A stretch of DNA of 64,000 nucleotides, taken from assembly GCF_016026235.1 (NCBI RefSeq), contig NZ_CP065613.1. One strand, 5' to 3'. The DNA is from Escherichia coli. Lineage in GTDB: Bacteria; Pseudomonadota; Gammaproteobacteria; Enterobacterales; Enterobacteriaceae. Made by a program: the position numbers and the translations under genes. Under the pieces are notes generated by a model. The model saw nothing but the letters and a program-made list of their open reading frames with translations, ran no database searches and was not told where the DNA came from. Positions 2,923 through 7,760 of the stretch are shown here, in pieces. Positions within the stretch are counted from its first letter, which is position 1. The number at the start of each line of letters is the position of its first letter.

Positions 2923-4179
2923 ATGGATTTCTTTCGTTTTTTGATGAGCGATGTACTTTCCGAACCCGCAGTGCTGGTCGGTTTAATCGCCCTGATTGGC
3001 CTGATTGCACAGAAAAAACCGGTAACCGAATGCATTAAAGGTACCGTCAAGACCATTATGGGGTTTGTGATTTTAGGCGCAGGGGCGGGTTTAGTTGTGT
3101 CGTCACTGGGTGACTTCGCAAACATTTTCCAGCATGCCTTTGGTATTCAGGGTGTAGTGCCGAACAATGAAGCCATTGTTTCCGTAGCGCAGAAAAGCTT
3201 CGGGAAAGAAATGGCGATGATTATGTTCTTTGCGATGGTTATCAACATTATGATTGCCCGTTTCACACCGTGGAAATTTATCTTCCTGACCGGTCATCAC
3301 ACGTTGTTTATGTCGATGATGGTAGCGGTAATTCTGGCAACAGCAGGCATGACCGGCATTACGCTTATAGCCGTTGGCTCTTTGGTTGTTGGCGTGGCAA
3401 TGGTCTTTTTCCCGGCTATTGCGCATCCGTACATGAAGAAAGTGACCGGTTCTGATGACGTTGCCATCGGCCACTTCTCAACATTATCTTATGTATTGGC
3501 CGGTTTCATCGGCAGCAAGTTTGGTAATAAAGAGCACTCGACTGAAGACATGAATGTGCCGAAAAGTCTGCTGTTCTTGCGCGACACGCCGGTTGCTATC
3601 TCTTTTACCATGAGCATAATTTTCCTGGTGACGTGCCTGTTTGCGGGTGCAGATGCGGTGAAAGAGCTTAGCGGTGGTAAAAACTGGTTCATGTTCTCTA
3701 TCATGCAATCCATTACCTTCGCAGCTGGCGTGTACATCATTCTGCAGGGTGTGCGCATGGTGATTGCGGAGATTGTCCCGGCATTCAAAGGTATTTCAGA
3801 CAAGCTGGTTCCGAATGCCAGACCTGCTCTCGATTGCCCGGTCGTCTTCCCTTACGCACCTAACGCTGTACTGGTTGGTTTCCTGAGTAGCTTTGCTGCA
3901 GGTTTAATCGGTATGTTCACGTTGTATCTGCTGAACATGATCGTGATTATTCCTGGTGTGGTGCCGCACTTCTTCGTAGGTGCAGCTGCAGGGGTATTCG
4001 GTAATGCAACGGGTGGACGTCGTGGTGCGATTTTGGGTGCCTTCGCTCAAGGCTTGCTTATTACCTTCCTGCCAGTATTCTTATTGCCGGTGCTGGGTGA
4101 TATTGGTTTTGCTAACACCACCTTCAGTGATGCTGACTTTGGCGCACTGGGTATTTTGTTAGGGATTATCGTTCGCTAA
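2923..4179 (+). CDS. PTS enzyme IIC permease, ascorbate (UlaA/SgaT) family
   Basis: 418 aa polytopic membrane protein with UlaA-like segments (IKGTVKTIMGF, VAEIVPAFKGISDKLVPNA). Confidence 0.85.
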   Translation: MDFFRFLMSDVLSEPAVLVGLIALIGLIAQKKPVTECIKGTVKTIMGFVILGAGAGLVVSSLGDFANIFQHAFGIQGVVPNNEAIVSVAQKSFGKEMAMIMFFAMVINIMIARFTPWKFIFLTGHHTLFMSMMVAVILATAGMTGITLIAVGSLVVGVAMVFFPAIAHPYMKKVTGSDDVAIGHFSTLSYVLAGFIGSKFGNKEHSTEDMNVPKSLLFLRDTPVAISFTMSIIFLVTCLFAGADAVKELSGGKNWFMFSIMQSITFAAGVYIILQGVRMVIAEIVPAFKGISDKLVPNARPALDCPVVFPYAPNAVLVGFLSSFAAGLIGMFTLYLLNMIVIIPGVVPHFFVGAAAGVFGNATGGRRGAILGAFAQGLLITFLPVFLLPVLGDIGFANTTFSDADFGALGILLGIIVR

Positions 4180-4192
4180 TATTTTGATGACA

Positions 4193-4245
4193 TTAATATC
4201 CTCCAGGATTTCAGGAACGTGGAGGATATTAATTCCTCTTATTTT
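4193..4245 (+). terminator. Intrinsic terminator after the PTS operon
   Basis: Perfect 13-bp inverted repeat TTAATATCCTCCA...TGGAGGATATTAA (4193-4232) followed by a T-rich tract. Confidence 0.6.
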
Positions 4246-4418
4246 CTCCATTTTTCTTTCTTCCAGTCAGGACTGCATCCGATTAATCGTAAGGCAGTAT
4301 GACTTTCTGTGAGACAGATGCTGGCCAACGTGGGATATTTAACGCGGGTTAACATCGTTGTCAGAGCCGCATGGGTGAGCTGTTGCTACACCCCGGTATT
4401 TCCACCACGGAGGCCAGC

Positions 4419-5546
4419 ATGAACAACAATAACACATTGTACGTCGGGTTAGATGTTCACAAAGAATCGATTACTGTCGCTTATGCTATCAATTCAGAAC
4501 CTGTTGAACTGATGGGTAAAATTGGCACATCACCTACTGATATTCAGAATCTTTGTAAACGTCTCAGGTCAAAGTCATCGCAGGTCAGTATCGTTTATGA
4601 AGCGGGGCCCTGTGGTTATGGACTTTATCGTCGGCTGGTGAAATCCGGTTTTGACTGCATGGTCTGCGCCCCCTCACTTATCCCGAAAAAACCGGGGGAG
4701 CGGGTTAAAACCGATCGCCGTGATGCCATCAGACTTGTGCGTTCACTGCGTGCAGGAGATCTTTCTGCTGTCTACGTACCCGGCATTGAAGATGAGGCAT
4801 TCCGGGATTTGGCCCGGGCATGGGCATCTGCCCGCGATGATTTACGGCATGCAAGGCAACGTCTGAAATCGTTTCTTCTGGTTCATGGGGTCCATTATGT
4901 CGGGCGAGCAGATTGGGGCCCTGCACACCGACGCTGGCTCAGCAAATACTCATTCGAAAGTCCCTGGCGACAATTAGCTTTTGACGAACACCGTCGTACA
5001 ATAGAAGACCGGCAGGCACAATGTGAACGGCTGGAATCCGCCCTGAAGGAGGCCGTTACCGAATGGAGGCTGTATCCGGTAGTAGAGGCGCTGCAAGCCA
5101 TGCGAGGGATTCAGTTTATTACTGCGGTTGGATTAATTTCTGAACTGGGTGATCTGACCCGTTTTGAACATCCACGACAACTGATGTCATGGTTTGGTAT
5201 CACGCCATCAGAATATTCATCGGGTGGAAGCAGACATCAGGGCAGCATTACCAAAGCCGGAAACAGCTATGCCAGAAAGCTATTGGTCGAGGCAGCGTGG
5301 AGTTACCGTCATCCGGCACGCATCAGTCCGGCAATACAAAAAAGGCAGGAAAATTTACCCCGCCCCGTCATTGACAGAGCATGGGATGCTCAACTCAGGC
5401 TTTGTAAGAGGTATCGAAAACTTCAGGCCAAAGGAAAGAATGTCAATATTACAATTGTTGCTGTTGCACGTGAGCTGGCGGGTTTTATCTGGGATATGGG
5501 CCGAATAGCAATATCTGTCGCACAACAACCACAATGTCACAAATAA
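4419..5546 (+). CDS. IS110-family transposase/recombinase (375 aa from the SD-preceded ATG; the ORF track starts at 4371)
   Basis: N-terminal LYVGLDVHKESI RuvC-like DEDD domain and C-terminal Transposase_20-type region (GITPSEYSSGGSRHQGSITKAGNSYARKLL); GGAGG 7 nt upstream of the ATG at 4419. Confidence 0.8.
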   Translation: MNNNNTLYVGLDVHKESITVAYAINSEPVELMGKIGTSPTDIQNLCKRLRSKSSQVSIVYEAGPCGYGLYRRLVKSGFDCMVCAPSLIPKKPGERVKTDRRDAIRLVRSLRAGDLSAVYVPGIEDEAFRDLARAWASARDDLRHARQRLKSFLLVHGVHYVGRADWGPAHRRWLSKYSFESPWRQLAFDEHRRTIEDRQAQCERLESALKEAVTEWRLYPVVEALQAMRGIQFITAVGLISELGDLTRFEHPRQLMSWFGITPSEYSSGGSRHQGSITKAGNSYARKLLVEAAWSYRHPARISPAIQKRQENLPRPVIDRAWDAQLRLCKRYRKLQAKGKNVNITIVAVARELAGFIWDMGRIAISVAQQPQCHK

Positions 5547-5565
5547 AAAATGAGAATAACCAGTT

Positions 5566-5748
5566 CCCTGAAGGCGACGTAGCCCGGTACAAGAGTAACC
5601 CACGTTAGCGCTTGGCGACGGCGGAACAAAGCTGATTCGCGACGTAAGAAAGTGGCAGGCTCATATGACGGACCTCTGTAATGCGGTATCCAACCCGCGA
5701 ATATCAGCGTGATTCACCGTCGGATTTACTGCTACGTCGCCCTCAGGG
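5566..5748 (+). other. Long-range inverted repeat enclosing 147 bp downstream of the IS110-family recombinase (candidate structured RNA)
   Basis: CCCTGAAGGCGACGTAGC (5566-5583) is complementary at 17 of 18 positions to GCTACGTCGCCCTCAGGG (5731-5748). Confidence 0.4.
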
Positions 5749-6134
5749 AATTAAACCTAAAAAGAAAATCGTCAAAATTAGAGATTCCGGTTTGACACGG
5801 AAAGTCATATCAGCGCTGACGGGTGACCCTAAGCCCTGATAATCATAGCTTAAGGTGAGGATTTATGAGGGATTAATTAGGAAAAGTAATAATTAATTTG
5901 TTGTCAGTCGGCGATGTTTGTTAGGCCAATATTTCAAAAATAATCCAGCTTGTCGTCAATAATTGCGATAAAGAGATAAATTAAAGTTAAATAATTAAAT
6001 CATTAAAAAATTACGCCATTAAAATGCGAGGCGTCTTCCGGATTAGAATCGATAAAACAGAATGGGTTAAAGAGAGCGATATAATAGCGGCGGGTGCTTG
6101 AGGCTGTCTGTCTCAGGCATTAGCTGAACGGCAG

Positions 6135-6195
6135 ATAGAGAAAAGCCCCGAGTGATATTTTACCATCAACCCGAGGCCCCCTATATGCTGAACAC
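6135..6195 (-). ncRNA. sokC: sokC antisense RNA of the hokC/mokC locus (position inferred)
   Basis: In hok/sok loci the Sok RNA is antisense to the mok start region; TTGACC (reverse complement of 6223-6228) is a candidate -35. Coordinates are approximate. Confidence 0.3.
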
Positions 6196-6394
6196 ATGTA
6201 GAGTGCCTCTTACTGACCGTAAGGTCAAGGAGAAGAGAGCAATGAAGCAGCATAAGGCGATGATTGTCGCCCTGATCGTCATCTGTATCACCGCCGTAGT
6301 GGCGGCGCTGGTAACGAGAAAAGACCTCTGTGAGGTTCACATCCGAACTGGCCAGACGGAGGTTGCTGTTTTCACGGCTTACGAATCCGAGTAA
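6185..6394 (+). CDS. mokC: MokC, overlapping regulatory reading frame of hokC
   Basis: 69-codon frame MLNTCRVPLTDRKVKEKRA... that contains hokC in the same frame. Confidence 0.65.
   Translation: MLNTCRVPLTDRKVKEKRAMKQHKAMIVALIVICITAVVAALVTRKDLCEVHIRTGQTEVAVFTAYESE
6242..6394 (+). CDS. hokC: HokC (Gef) small membrane toxin
   Basis: 50 aa MKQHKAMIVALIVICITAVVAALVTRKDLCEVHIRTGQTEVAVFTAYESE, matching the Hok family. Confidence 0.85.
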   Translation: MKQHKAMIVALIVICITAVVAALVTRKDLCEVHIRTGQTEVAVFTAYESE

Positions 6395-6417
6395 GAGCAA
6401 CGGCGGGGAGTGATCCC

Positions 6418-7711
6418 CTGAGGGATCCCCAGAAAATTTAGTAAACCATTATCATATTGGTATACCGTTGCTGTAGAACTTTCAGCCCTGCGTCAAGTGA
6501 CAGTGTGTTTAGTATGAGTGGAGAATGTCGAATCACATTCTCCGCCAGTTTTAATAACGAGATGACTCGCCTGTGCTTCACTGTATTTGCCTGATATTTA
6601 TGATGTATCCCTTTGTTTTCCAGGCTGAAACCGCTTAACCACATAATGATACTGGCTAATGTTGCGATCAGACTCAATACCGTGACCCGCCCGGATGAAT
6701 GACTGGCACCAAACCGTAGTCCAAATCCCCAGCGAGGATTTTTTTCATCCCTGAAATTTTGCTCAATTTGCATTCTACGGCTGTATAATTTCATTACCTG
6801 TTTTGGCGAGAACTCAGTACTGTTTGTGAAAATAAACCATGGTGATTTCCCGGCAGTACGAGCTTTAGCCGTCACCGATGGTCTGGTTGCTCTTTCCTTC
6901 GAGCGTTTAAATCTACGACCTTTAGGCTTACTTTTATAAAGATAAAAATGCCCTTCATGTTGTGCATTTTTATCTCGACCCAGCAGGCCTTCACCTAAAT
7001 AAATTGCTGTCGTTGATGCTTTTGTGCCTGAGTCCGACACCTTTTCCCAGCCATTACCAACATTGTAATAATGATTGCCCAGTACCCGGCAAATATAGGT
7101 CCAGCCACGGGAGCGGAGCTGTTGGAACCATCGCCCCTGAAAACCGGCATCTGTAATAACAATGACATCAGTCCCGGGGGAAAAGCACTCAGCAAGCGAT
7201 TCCAGAAAACGCTCATGTACATCTGCATTCGCTGTCTGTGATGATGGAACGACACAACTCATCAACGGTAAAGAACGCCCGTCACATGCCAGGCTTGCCC
7301 GCAAAAGCTGAAAACGAGAGGCATGATAAGCACTCCAGTCAATGAGTATCACAACACGAGACATTCCCCGCGTAATCTTTTGGGTAATTCGCTGAAAAAT
7401 GGTGGAAACCTCATTTTGCAAATGTCGATTCCCCAACAGTCGATCCACCCGCTTTATTTTGTTTTTAACTGATGCCGTACCGGTTAAATGACGCCCGATA
7501 CTGGTAAGTGTGAGGGAAGCGCCATTTATTACAGCATTAGTTGCGTCAATCAGTGATTTTTGACGGTAAAGATGCAAAGGGGCCAGTATATTGTTAAGGA
7601 AATTTTGGCATAATGAACGTGCAGGCATAGTGGTGATCTCCTTGAAATTGTTAGCACAATCAATTAGATCACATCTCACTATGCCTGTCTTGTTTTCTGG
7701 GGATTCCTCAG
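6418..7711 (-). mobile_element. IS10-like (IS4-family) insertion sequence, intact copy, about 1.29 kb
   Basis: Terminal inverted repeats CTGAGGGATCCCCAGAAAA (left) and CTGAGGAATCCCCAGAAAA (right, reverse complement), resembling IS10 ends; flanked by direct repeat GAGTGATCC(C) at 6408-6417 and 7712-7721. Confidence 0.8.
6438..7628 (-). CDS. IS4-family (IS10-group) transposase, 396 aa
   Basis: Shares IS10 transposase motifs (KIKRVDRLLGNRHL, DWSA, DAGF, YSRRMQIEQNFRDEK, QANTVKHRRV); true start is MPARSL at 7628, the ORF-track start at 7727 lies outside the element. Confidence 0.85.
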   Translation of the reverse strand: MPARSLCQNFLNNILAPLHLYRQKSLIDATNAVINGASLTLTSIGRHLTGTASVKNKIKRVDRLLGNRHLQNEVSTIFQRITQKITRGMSRVVILIDWSAYHASRFQLLRASLACDGRSLPLMSCVVPSSQTANADVHERFLESLAECFSPGTDVIVITDAGFQGRWFQQLRSRGWTYICRVLGNHYYNVGNGWEKVSDSGTKASTTAIYLGEGLLGRDKNAQHEGHFYLYKSKPKGRRFKRSKERATRPSVTAKARTAGKSPWFIFTNSTEFSPKQVMKLYSRRMQIEQNFRDEKNPRWGFGLRFGASHSSGRVTVLSLIATLASIIMWLSGFSLENKGIHHKYQANTVKHRRVISLLKLAENVIRHSPLILNTLSLDAGLKVLQQRYTNMIMVY

Positions 7712-7760
7712 GAGTGATCCCCGCCACTTTACAGGTGCTCGCATATCTTCAACGCACCCT

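What the first reader, a model, noticed from the sequence alone, without database searches (positions are those of the whole stretch)
4250..5750. IS110-family element with a candidate guide (bridge/seek) RNA in its 3' noncoding tail
The element encodes a long DEDD/Transposase_20 recombinase (4419..5546) and has no terminal inverted repeats. Immediately after the stop codon there is an 18-bp inverted repeat (5566-5583 against 5731-5748, 17 of 18 complementary) enclosing 147 bp, the size and position expected for the structured guide RNA that IS1111-group elements carry at their right end. Such RNAs specify both target and donor sequence, so this copy could report the element's target site.
Basis: partly seen in the sequence, partly recalled or inferred. 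Interest (0 to 1): 0.6.

Follow-up and report, generated by a model that had tools for sequence, protein, structure and literature searches.

The report
ISSso6 insertion sequence guide RNA
The inverted repeat is the basal stem of a conserved, about 190-nt guide (bridge/seek) RNA encoded just after the recombinase gene of the insertion sequence ISSso6; its loops spell out the element's insertion site, which makes it a well-supported new example of an RNA-guided transposon type described in 2024.

Summary

**The element.** It is ISSso6. Empty-site comparison bounds it at about 4294-5811, with a shared AG "core" at both junctions. The repeat lies inside it (20 nt, 19/20 complementary: 5564-5583 and 5731-5750).

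- The element does have 14-bp subterminal inverted repeats: 4298-4311 and 5796-5809.

**The RNA.**
- The 3' non-coding region is conserved in more than 45 related elements and folds into a conserved structure.
- With distant relatives included, 35 of 47 base pairs show compensatory changes. Frequent G-U pairs place the RNA on the + strand.
- One internal loop holds two hypervariable patches that co-vary with the flanking DNA:
  - 5604-5613 (GUUAGCGCUU) is complementary to the right flank.
  - 5643-5648 (CGUAAG) is identical to the left flank.
  - No permutation out of 20,000 reached either observed value.
- A second loop carries an invariant AUAUCAG (5701-5707), identical to the right end. The next base tracks the first flank base in 27 of 30 cases.

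**Limits and standing.** Expression and protein binding are inferred, not shown. This copy is chimeric: its left flank comes from a PTS-operon site and its right flank from the nhaA-hokC site. I rate it a new member of a known kind, of moderate interest.

The parts
4294..5811 (+). ISSso6 insertion sequence. The AG dinucleotide at 4292-4293 and again at 5812-5813 is shared between element and target, so the element is 1,518 bp plus one AG.
   Evidence: Megablast finds 99.8-99.9% identical copies that PGAP annotates 'IS110-like element ISSso6 family transposase'. Junctions were aligned with the empty sites L012 and L013.
4288..4293 (+). Left target half plus core (CGTA-AG), derived from the site downstream of the PTS ascorbate-type IIC gene.
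   Evidence: The empty site L012 reads ...TTAATCGTAAG|CGCTCCGAG. The sequence is identical to RNA 5643-5648.
4298..4311 (+). Left subterminal inverted repeat, TATGACTTTCTGTG. Other copies have C at the position equivalent to 4308.
   Evidence: (pair I6). The inner part co-varies with the right repeat across relatives.
4295..4300 (+). CAGTAT, the candidate -10 hexamer of a junction promoter that would form only in the excised circle.
   Evidence: In the circle, the -35 TTGACA at 5792-5797 would lie 17 bp upstream (counted). Both hexamers are invariant in relatives. This is an inference by analogy with ISEc11 and ISEc21 (PMC11187229).
4419..5546 (+). Recombinase/transposase gene, 375 aa, with the ribosome-binding site GGAGG at 4409-4413.
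   Evidence: Pfam DEDD_Tnp_IS110 and Transposase_20. NCBIfam NF033542 'IS110 family RNA-guided transposase', 273.9 bits against a cut-off of 140. 46% identical to the ISCARN28 transposase.
5561..5753 (+). Predicted guide (bridge/seek) RNA, delimited by its basal stem.
   Evidence: RNAalifold consensus. Pair counts: 98.4% of cells paired in close relatives; 95.4% paired with 35/47 compensatory pairs when distant relatives are added. The covariance model scores 205.8 bits on the + strand and 32 on the - strand.
5561..5583 (+).
   Evidence: All 22 pairs of this stem show compensatory changes or G-U variation once distant relatives are included.
5731..5753 (+).
5604..5613 (+). Right-target guide, GUUAGCGCUU, on the 5' side of internal loop 1. 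It is complementary to the top strand A-AG-CGCTAAC.
   Evidence: It matches the flank of the intact nhaA-hokC insertion (L004) at 10/10 positions, and the window flank 5812-5821 with one U-G wobble. Covariation with right flanks: 144/232 observed against 76.7 +/- 6.7 when flanks are permuted, 0/20000. The MI scan shows an antidiagonal over 5606-5610.
5615..5640 (+). Apical hairpin that closes internal loop 1.
   Evidence: Helices 4 and 5 have compensatory changes.
5643..5648 (+). Left-target guide, CGUAAG, on the 3' side of internal loop 1. It is identical to the top strand of the left flank plus core, so it would pair with the bottom strand.
   Evidence: The two bases before the core match the flank at 42/48 positions, against 18.7 +/- 3.3 permuted, 0/20000. 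In the MI scan, 5645 and 5646 match flank positions at 0.89 identity.
5667..5721 (+). Second domain: stem 5667-5671/5717-5721, a large internal loop, and the inner hairpin 5682-5686/5695-5699.
   Evidence: It is highly conserved with few compensatory changes, so these stems are less well supported.
5701..5708 (+). AUAUCAG plus C. The first 7 nt are identical to the right end plus core (ATATC-AG), a candidate left-donor guide. The 8th base copies the first base of the right flank.
   Evidence: AUAUCAG is nearly invariant, even in relatives at 47-57% protein identity. Position 5708 equals the first flank base after the core in 27/30 cases, against 13.7 +/- 2.4 permuted, 0/20000 (MI 0.90).
5727..5732 (+). 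UACUGC in the multiloop junction, complementary to the left end GCAGTA (4294-4299). This is a weak candidate right-donor guide.
   Evidence: The match is seen directly in the sequence and is nearly invariant. A 6-mer match of this kind is expected by chance about 0.3 times, and no covariation is available to test it.
5792..5797 (+). TTGACA, the candidate -35 hexamer of the circle-junction promoter.
   Evidence: Invariant in relatives. It sits in the loop of the hairpin 5785-5802.
5796..5809 (+). Right subterminal inverted repeat, CACGGAAAGTCATA.
5812..5821 (+). Core plus right target half (AG-CGCTGACG), from the nhaA-hokC intergenic site.
   Evidence: The empty site in K-12 (L013) and the intact insertion in CFSAN029787 (L004).

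Best explanation
The window holds one copy of ISSso6, an IS110-family element organised like the IS1111 group: subterminal inverted repeats, a short 5' non-coding end and a long 3' one.

Inside that stem, a first domain presents an internal loop with two guides. [quoted passage not shown] The two guides overlap at an AG core, and together they specify about (C)GTA-AG-CGCTAAC.

A second domain presents AUAUCAG (5701-5707), which matches the right end of the element plus the core and probably holds the donor end. The following base (5708) reads the first base of the right flank. That fits recognition of the right junction, either for excision or after strand exchange, in the manner of a handshake base.

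By analogy with ISEc11 and IS621, the recombinase bound to this RNA would excise the element as a circle. The circle junction would create a TTGACA-17 bp-CAGTAT promoter. The same complex would then insert the circle at a matching site by exchange at the core, without a target duplication.

Shown here: the boundaries, the conserved structure, the strand, and the covariation between guides and flanks. Inferred: transcription and processing, binding to the recombinase, the donor contacts, and the chemistry.
For: - Identity and boundaries.
- Recombinase family.
- Nucleotide conservation of the 3' non-coding region in more than 45 relatives whose proteins are only 65-80% identical.
- Consensus structure: 98.4% of cells paired, 13 compensatory pairs, 0/500 shuffles reaching the observed values, and 37-41% paired when partners are slid.
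- With relatives down to 47% protein identity: 35/47 compensatory pairs.
- Strand: many G-U pairs (for example 28, 13, 19, 14 and 31 sequences at five pairs); the covariance model scores 205.8 bits on + and 32 on -.
- Sequence variation is concentrated in the two loop patches and at 5708-5709.
- Right-target guide against right flank: 0/20000 permutations. Left-target guide against left flank: 0/20000. Position 5708 against the first flank base: 27/30, 0/20000.
- An unbiased mutual-information scan returns only these signals at the top.
- Distant relatives obey the same rule.
- The order of guides, top-strand match 5' of bottom-strand match, is the order reported for IS1111-family seekRNAs (PMC11187229).
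- The guide definitions follow PMC11208160.
Against: - There is no direct evidence of a transcript. No sigma-70-like promoter is predicted just upstream of the RNA, so expression would depend on read-through from the recombinase gene or from the circle-junction promoter.
- Rfam 15 has no matching family.
- Donor recognition is only partly supported. AUAUCAG is invariant, so it cannot be tested by covariation. The candidate right-donor guide is a 6-mer that could arise by chance. The stems of domain 2 have few compensatory changes.
- The alignment used was fitted to the model, which favours the structure.
- This copy has a C-to-T change in the left subterminal repeat and an M-to-I change in the recombinase, and its flanks are chimeric, so its own activity is uncertain.
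Confidence: 0.9

Rival explanations
1. The inverted repeat is a transcription terminator or an mRNA-stabilising 3' hairpin for the recombinase gene, with no guide function.
For: It lies immediately after the stop codon and forms a very stable stem.
Against: No T-run follows the stem; the next bases are AATTAAACCTAAAAAG, and the terminator scan does not report it. The stem encloses 147 nt of conserved, structured sequence. The loop patches co-vary with flanking DNA outside the element, which a terminator would not explain.
Confidence: 0.03
2. The conserved 3' region acts as DNA, for example as recombinase-binding sites or a cruciform in the right end, and not as RNA.
For: The reverse strand folds about as well in a single-sequence prediction (-81.8 kcal/mol). 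IS1111-type elements do have DNA-level end signals, the subterminal repeats.
Against: Many conserved G-U pairs would be A-C mismatches on the other strand. The covariance model scores 205.8 bits on + and 32 on -. In related families, RNA from this region co-purifies with the recombinase and works in trans (PMC11187229).
Confidence: 0.04
3. The repeat is a chance feature, or part of the pre-existing chromosomal nhaA-hokC sequence.
For: None was found.
Against: Shuffles expect 0.02 such sites. The repeat is present in every ISSso6 copy whatever its location, and absent from both empty sites.
Confidence: 0.01

Closest known systems
ISCARN28 and its predicted bridge RNA (Durrant et al. [quoted passage not shown]
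   Same: The recombinases are 46% identical over their full length (E 1.8e-114). ISCARN28 is listed there among six elements, three of each group, for which a bridge RNA was predicted. The paper notes that many IS1111-group RNAs carry donor-binding bases in a multiloop, which is where the UACUGC candidate sits here.
   Different: It is a different element with a different host and target. I could not see the published figure, so the RNA architectures were not compared directly. The ISSso6 RNA itself is not described in any paper I could search.
seekRNAs of the IS1111-family elements ISEc11, ISPa11 and ISKpn4 (Siddiquee et al. 2024, PMC11187229)
   Same: The RNA is encoded downstream of the recombinase gene. 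The elements have subterminal inverted repeats. [quoted passage not shown] Relatives are naturally re-targeted by changes confined to these patches. There is no target duplication, and a promoter forms at the circle junction.
   Different: The ISSso6 recombinase is 375 aa, against 330-350 aa for that family, and resembles IS1111A and ISEc11 only in about 70-130 residues of the C-terminal domain. Those RNAs were shown experimentally to bind the recombinase and to be required; here that is inferred.
IS621 bridge RNA (IS110 group; PMC11208160 and PMC11208158)
   Same: Two-loop logic: a target loop with left and right guides that both include the core dinucleotide; a donor-directed guide matching the element end; and an extra base that reads the non-cognate partner, as the handshake guides do.
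   Different: In IS621 the RNA is upstream of the gene, the order of guides is reversed, the core is CT, and the handshake bases flank the top-strand guides and read positions left of the core. In ISSso6 the covarying base follows the bottom-strand donor guide and reads the base to the right of the core.

Membership tests
IS110 family (DEDD recombinase elements) | A recombinase with an N-terminal DEDD/RuvC-like domain and a C-terminal Transposase_20 domain | tested here: met
   Pfam PF01548 (E 6.7e-11) and PF02371 (E 1.6e-23). NCBIfam NF033542, 273.9 bits against a cut-off of 140.
IS110 family (DEDD recombinase elements) | Site-specific insertion without a target duplication, at a short core shared by element and target | tested here: met
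   The empty sites read GTA-AG-CGCT. The occupied sites read GTA-AG-[IS]-AG-CGCT, with a single AG accounted for by the target.
IS1111 group | Subterminal inverted repeats of 7-17 bp | tested here: met
   A 14-bp repeat, 4298-4311 and 5796-5809. It is perfect in other copies, and its inner part co-varies across relatives.
IS1111 group | The longer non-coding region lies downstream of the recombinase gene | tested here: met
   The 5' non-coding end is 125 nt (4294-4418) and the 3' non-coding end is 265 nt (5547-5811).
IS1111 group | A recombinase related to that of IS1111 across its full length, about 330-350 aa (criterion in PMC11187229) | tested here: not met
   The protein is 375 aa. BLASTP to IS1111A aligns only 69 residues (33%), and to ISEc11 only 129 residues (25%). 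The full-length relative is ISCARN28. I therefore describe the element as IS1111-like in organisation and as a member of the ISCARN28 clade, not as a canonical IS1111 member.
Bridge RNA / seekRNA | A conserved structured RNA in the non-coding end, on the sense strand | tested here: met
   covariation, G-U strand asymmetry, and a strand-specific covariance-model score.
Bridge RNA / seekRNA | [quoted passage not shown] | tested here: met
Bridge RNA / seekRNA | A second loop complementary to both ends of the element (the donor) | tested here: inconclusive
   AUAUCAG equals the right end plus core and is invariant, and the adjacent base tracks the flank. The left-end match UACUGC is only a 6-mer with no covariation available.
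Bridge RNA / seekRNA | The RNA is transcribed, binds the recombinase and is required for excision and insertion | not testable with these tools
   No expression or biochemical data are available. This needs RNA-seq or RIP and transposition assays.
Bridge RNA / seekRNA | A match to a curated RNA family model | tested here: not met
   Rfam 15 gives no hit in 5547-5811, even at E <= 10. I could not establish whether Rfam holds a model for this class at all.

The most novel reading that the evidence does not exclude
ISSso6 and its relatives form a separate lineage. Their recombinases are like ISCARN28 and not like IS1111, yet the elements have subterminal repeats and a 3' RNA. In this lineage the donor loop carries a base (5708) that reads the first base of the right target half, a mirror image of the IS621 handshake guides. 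In relatives with an AA target core, the right junction keeps AA while the left junction reads AG, which suggests that strand exchange falls between the two core nucleotides. If these details are not already in the literature, they refine the rules for programming IS1111-type recombinases. The roughly 30 naturally re-targeted relatives in Burkholderiaceae and other bacteria would then serve as a ready-made specificity panel.
Probability: 0.3. Interest if true: 0.45.

Novelty: new member of a known kind. Interest (0 to 1): 0.33.

Why it matters
RNA-guided IS110/IS1111 recombinases are being developed as programmable tools for inserting DNA.

- **Target specificity.** This analysis explains the target specificity of ISSso6, an element that has multiplied in some E. 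coli (up to 16 places in one genome) and is named for Shigella sonnei. The target is about GTA-AG-CGCTAAC.
- **Annotation.** It shows how such copies can be annotated correctly: element ends, RNA gene and guides.
- **Rearrangement marker.** The chimeric flanks mark this copy as a breakpoint of a genome rearrangement.
- **Testable design rule.** The comparison across relatives gives one rule that can be tested: base 5708 should match the first base of the right flank.

It does not reveal a new kind of system.

Tried and rejected
- **Rfam scan of 4000-6500 at E <= 10.** Only the sok RNA of the neighbouring hok/sok locus is significant; nothing is found in the non-coding region.
- **Apparent re-targeted relative in E. 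coli.** It is 95% identical up to window position 5626 and then diverges. It turned out to be a copy truncated by another IS insertion, so it is not informative.
- **First regular-expression attempt to extract left junctions.** It returned nothing because of a pattern error and was redone.
- **Right-donor guide on the 5' side of loop 2 (5672-5681, ACCUCUGUAA).** I found no convincing complementarity to the left end. There is a 5-6 nt match to a position about 25 nt inside the left end, which I treat as chance.
- **Bases after the core in the left-target patch (5649-5651).** I tested whether they track the first base of the left end. They follow no consistent rule (rows).
- **The ORF 5681-5839 (52 aa) that crosses the element end.** Rejected as a gene, because the region after 5755 is variable and full of insertions and deletions in relatives.
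- **ATATGAC at 5662-5668, which resembles the element ends.** Rejected, because this segment is not conserved in relatives.
Full report
**1. The observation**

The inverted repeat is real and slightly longer than reported.
- Its arms are 5564-5583 and 5731-5750, 20 nt, 19/20 complementary, with 147 nt between them.
- The arm sequence occurs only at these two places in the window. Shuffles expect 0.02 occurrences.
- The ORF 4419-5546 encodes a 375-aa protein with DEDD_Tnp_IS110 and Transposase_20 domains.
- That protein passes the NCBIfam model NF033542, "IS110 family RNA-guided transposase", at 273.9 bits against a cut-off of 140.

**2. What the element is and where it ends**

Megablast against complete E. 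coli genomes finds 99.8-99.9% identical copies, annotated by PGAP as "IS110-like element ISSso6 family transposase". One genome holds up to 16 places.

I fetched ten copies and two empty sites and aligned their junctions.
- The empty K-12 nhaA-hokC site reads ...GACGGCTGTA-AG-CGCTCACGAG.
- The empty site downstream of a PTS ascorbate-type IIC gene reads ...TTAATCGTA-AG-CGCTCCGAG.
- Occupied sites read ...GTA-AG-GCAGTATGAC...GTCATATC-AG-CGCT....

From this I conclude:
- The element is 4294-5811, plus one AG that it shares with the target.
- There is no target duplication.

The element also has a 14-bp subterminal inverted repeat, 4298-4311 and 5796-5809. It is perfect in other copies, and its inner bases co-vary between the two ends in relatives.

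**3. This copy is chimeric**

- Its left flank is the PTS site.
- Its right flank is the nhaA-hokC site. E. coli CFSAN029787 has the intact nhaA-ISSso6-hokC arrangement.
- Neither nhaA nor the DNA normally downstream of the PTS operon is in the window.
- The simplest reading is recombination between two ISSso6 copies.
- The copy differs from the common sequence at 4308 (C to T, in the left subterminal repeat) and at 5513 (M to I in the protein). The RNA region is identical to that of the other copies.

**4. A conserved structured RNA**

A protein search found hundreds of relatives at 72-95% identity, mostly in Burkholderiaceae. I fetched 80 loci.

Conservation:
- The 265-nt 3' non-coding region is conserved at the nucleotide level in more than 45 of these loci (alignment).

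Structure (RNAalifold on 32 sequences):
- a first domain, in which stems enclose an internal loop capped by the hairpin 5615-5640;
- a second domain, with stem 5667-5671/5717-5721 and inner hairpin 5682-5686/5695-5699.

Pair counts:

| Alignment | Cells paired | Pairs with compensatory change | Shuffle control | Slid-partner control |
|---|---|---|---|---|
| 32 close relatives | 98.4% | 13 | 0/500 reach the observed values | 37-41% paired |
| 38 sequences including distant relatives | 95.4% | 35 of 47 | 0/500 | 37-45% paired, 12-18 pairs |

- A covariance model built from this alignment finds the same RNA just downstream of the gene in relatives down to 47% protein identity. The second row of the table uses that alignment, which was fitted to the model and therefore leans towards the structure.
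- The stems of domain 2 have few compensatory changes and are the weakest part.

Strand:
- Several pairs are G-U in many sequences.
- The model scores 205.8 bits on the + strand and 32 on the - strand.
- The RNA is therefore sense to the recombinase gene.

**5. The guides**

Variation is concentrated in two patches of internal loop 1 and at 5708-5709.

- **Right-target guide, 5604-5613 (GUUAGCGCUU).** Its reverse complement, AAGCGCTAAC, equals the core plus right flank of the intact nhaA-hokC insertion at 10/10 positions. It pairs with the window flank with one U-G wobble. Across 29 distinct guides, the 8 bases beyond the core match their own right flank at 144/232 positions. With flanks permuted the mean is 76.7 +/- 6.7, and 0 of 20,000 permutations reach 144.
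- **Left-target guide, 5643-5648 (CGUAAG).** It is identical to the left flank plus core. The two bases before the core match at 42/48 positions, against 18.7 +/- 3.3 permuted, 0/20,000.
- **Unbiased scan.** A mutual-information scan of every variable RNA column against every junction position puts these signals at the top: an antiparallel complementary run 5606-5610 against right-flank positions 6 to 2 (counted from the first core base as 0), a parallel identity run 5645-5646, and one further signal at 5708.
- **Distant relatives** follow the same rule.

In the nomenclature of PMC11208160, these are a right-target guide, which pairs with the top strand, and a left-target guide, which pairs with the bottom strand. 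The order here, top-strand match 5' of bottom-strand match, is the one reported for IS1111-family seekRNAs (PMC11187229).

**6. Donor side**

- The 3' side of loop 2 carries AUAUCAG (5701-5707). It is identical to the right end plus core and nearly invariant, even in distant relatives. It is a plausible left-donor guide, but because it does not vary it cannot be tested by covariation.
- The next base (5708) equals the first base of the right flank in 27 of 30 distinct cases. The permuted mean is 13.7 +/- 2.4, with 0/20,000 reaching 27. This suggests that this segment reads the junction of right end and right flank, either in the integrated element or after strand exchange. That is reminiscent of the IS621 handshake guides, but mirrored.
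- A candidate right-donor guide, UACUGC (5727-5732), is complementary to the left end GCAGTA and sits in the multiloop. PMC11208160 notes that donor-binding bases often lie in a multiloop in IS1111-type RNAs. A 6-mer match of this kind is not significant by itself.

**7. Expression**

- No promoter-like site lies just upstream of the RNA.
- In the excised circle, TTGACA (5792-5797) would sit 17 bp from CAGTAT (4295-4300). Both hexamers are invariant in relatives.
- Junction promoters of this kind, and processing of the guide from a longer transcript, are reported for related elements (PMC11187229; PMC12288879).
- For ISSso6 this is an inference.

**8. Comparison with what is known, and novelty**

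- The ISSso6 recombinase is 46% identical over its full length to that of ISCARN28. ISCARN28 is one of the six elements for which a predicted bridge RNA is drawn in PMC11208160.
- It resembles IS1111A and ISEc11 only in part of the C-terminal domain.
- ISSso6 meets the organisational hallmarks of the IS1111 group but not the criterion of a full-length IS1111-like recombinase of 330-350 aa.
- ISSso6 is in the ISfinder set analysed in PMC11187229, but it is not described individually in any paper I could search.
- NCBI already names the protein family "RNA-guided transposase".

The finding is therefore a well-supported new member of a known kind. Two finer points may be new: the behaviour of base 5708, and the pattern of AA at the right junction with AG at the left junction in some relatives.

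**9. Verdict**

- My confidence that 5561-5753 encodes the guide RNA of ISSso6 is about 0.9.
- Interest is moderate to low (0.33), because the class and its logic were published in 2024.

Noticed in passing
window 4150-4293 and 5812-5950: The two flanks of this ISSso6 copy come from different insertion sites. The left flank is the site downstream of a PTS ascorbate-type IIC gene, and the right flank is the nhaA-hokC intergenic region. nhaA is absent from the window. This points to a rearrangement between two ISSso6 copies.
   Followed up: partly
window 5708; relatives L014-L092: The base after AUAUCAG in the second RNA loop equals the first base of the right flank in 27/30 relatives (0/20000 permutations). 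This is a handshake-like cross-reading that I did not find described for IS1111-type elements.
   Followed up: yes
L025, L026, L037, L060, L065, L066, L072 (junctions): In relatives whose right junction reads ATATC-AA-, the left junction still reads -AG-. This would be expected if strands are exchanged between the two core nucleotides, or if only the first A is the true core.
   Followed up: partly
window 4308 and 5513: This copy differs from other ISSso6 copies by a C-to-T change inside the left subterminal inverted repeat, and by an M-to-I change near the C-terminus of the recombinase. The effect on activity is unknown.
   Followed up: partly
window 5785-5802: The hairpin TTCCG-N8-CGGAA encloses the -35-like TTGACA of the right end. 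On the minus strand it is followed by a T-rich run and is reported as terminator-like. The arms seem to vary together in relatives.
   Followed up: no
window 6092-6394: A hok/sok-type toxin-antitoxin locus. The sok RNA (RF01794) matches at 119.5 bits at 6092-6244, and the mokC/hokC ORF lies at 6152-6394.
   Followed up: no
window 6438-7727 (- strand): A 429-aa ORF lies between hokC and dnaJ. From memory it looks like an IS4-family transposase, at the position where K-12 carries IS186. I did not test this.
   Followed up: no
window 4192-4233: A perfect 14-bp hairpin followed by a T-rich run lies just after the PTS IIC gene. It is likely that operon's terminator. It lies in the left-flank sequence shared with other E. 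coli genomes, outside the element.
   Followed up: no
L011 (E. coli S19-141): An ISSso6 relative, 95% identical, is cut off at the position equivalent to window 5626, inside the RNA gene, by another insertion sequence. Its recombinase gene is frameshifted, so it is a dead copy.
   Followed up: partly
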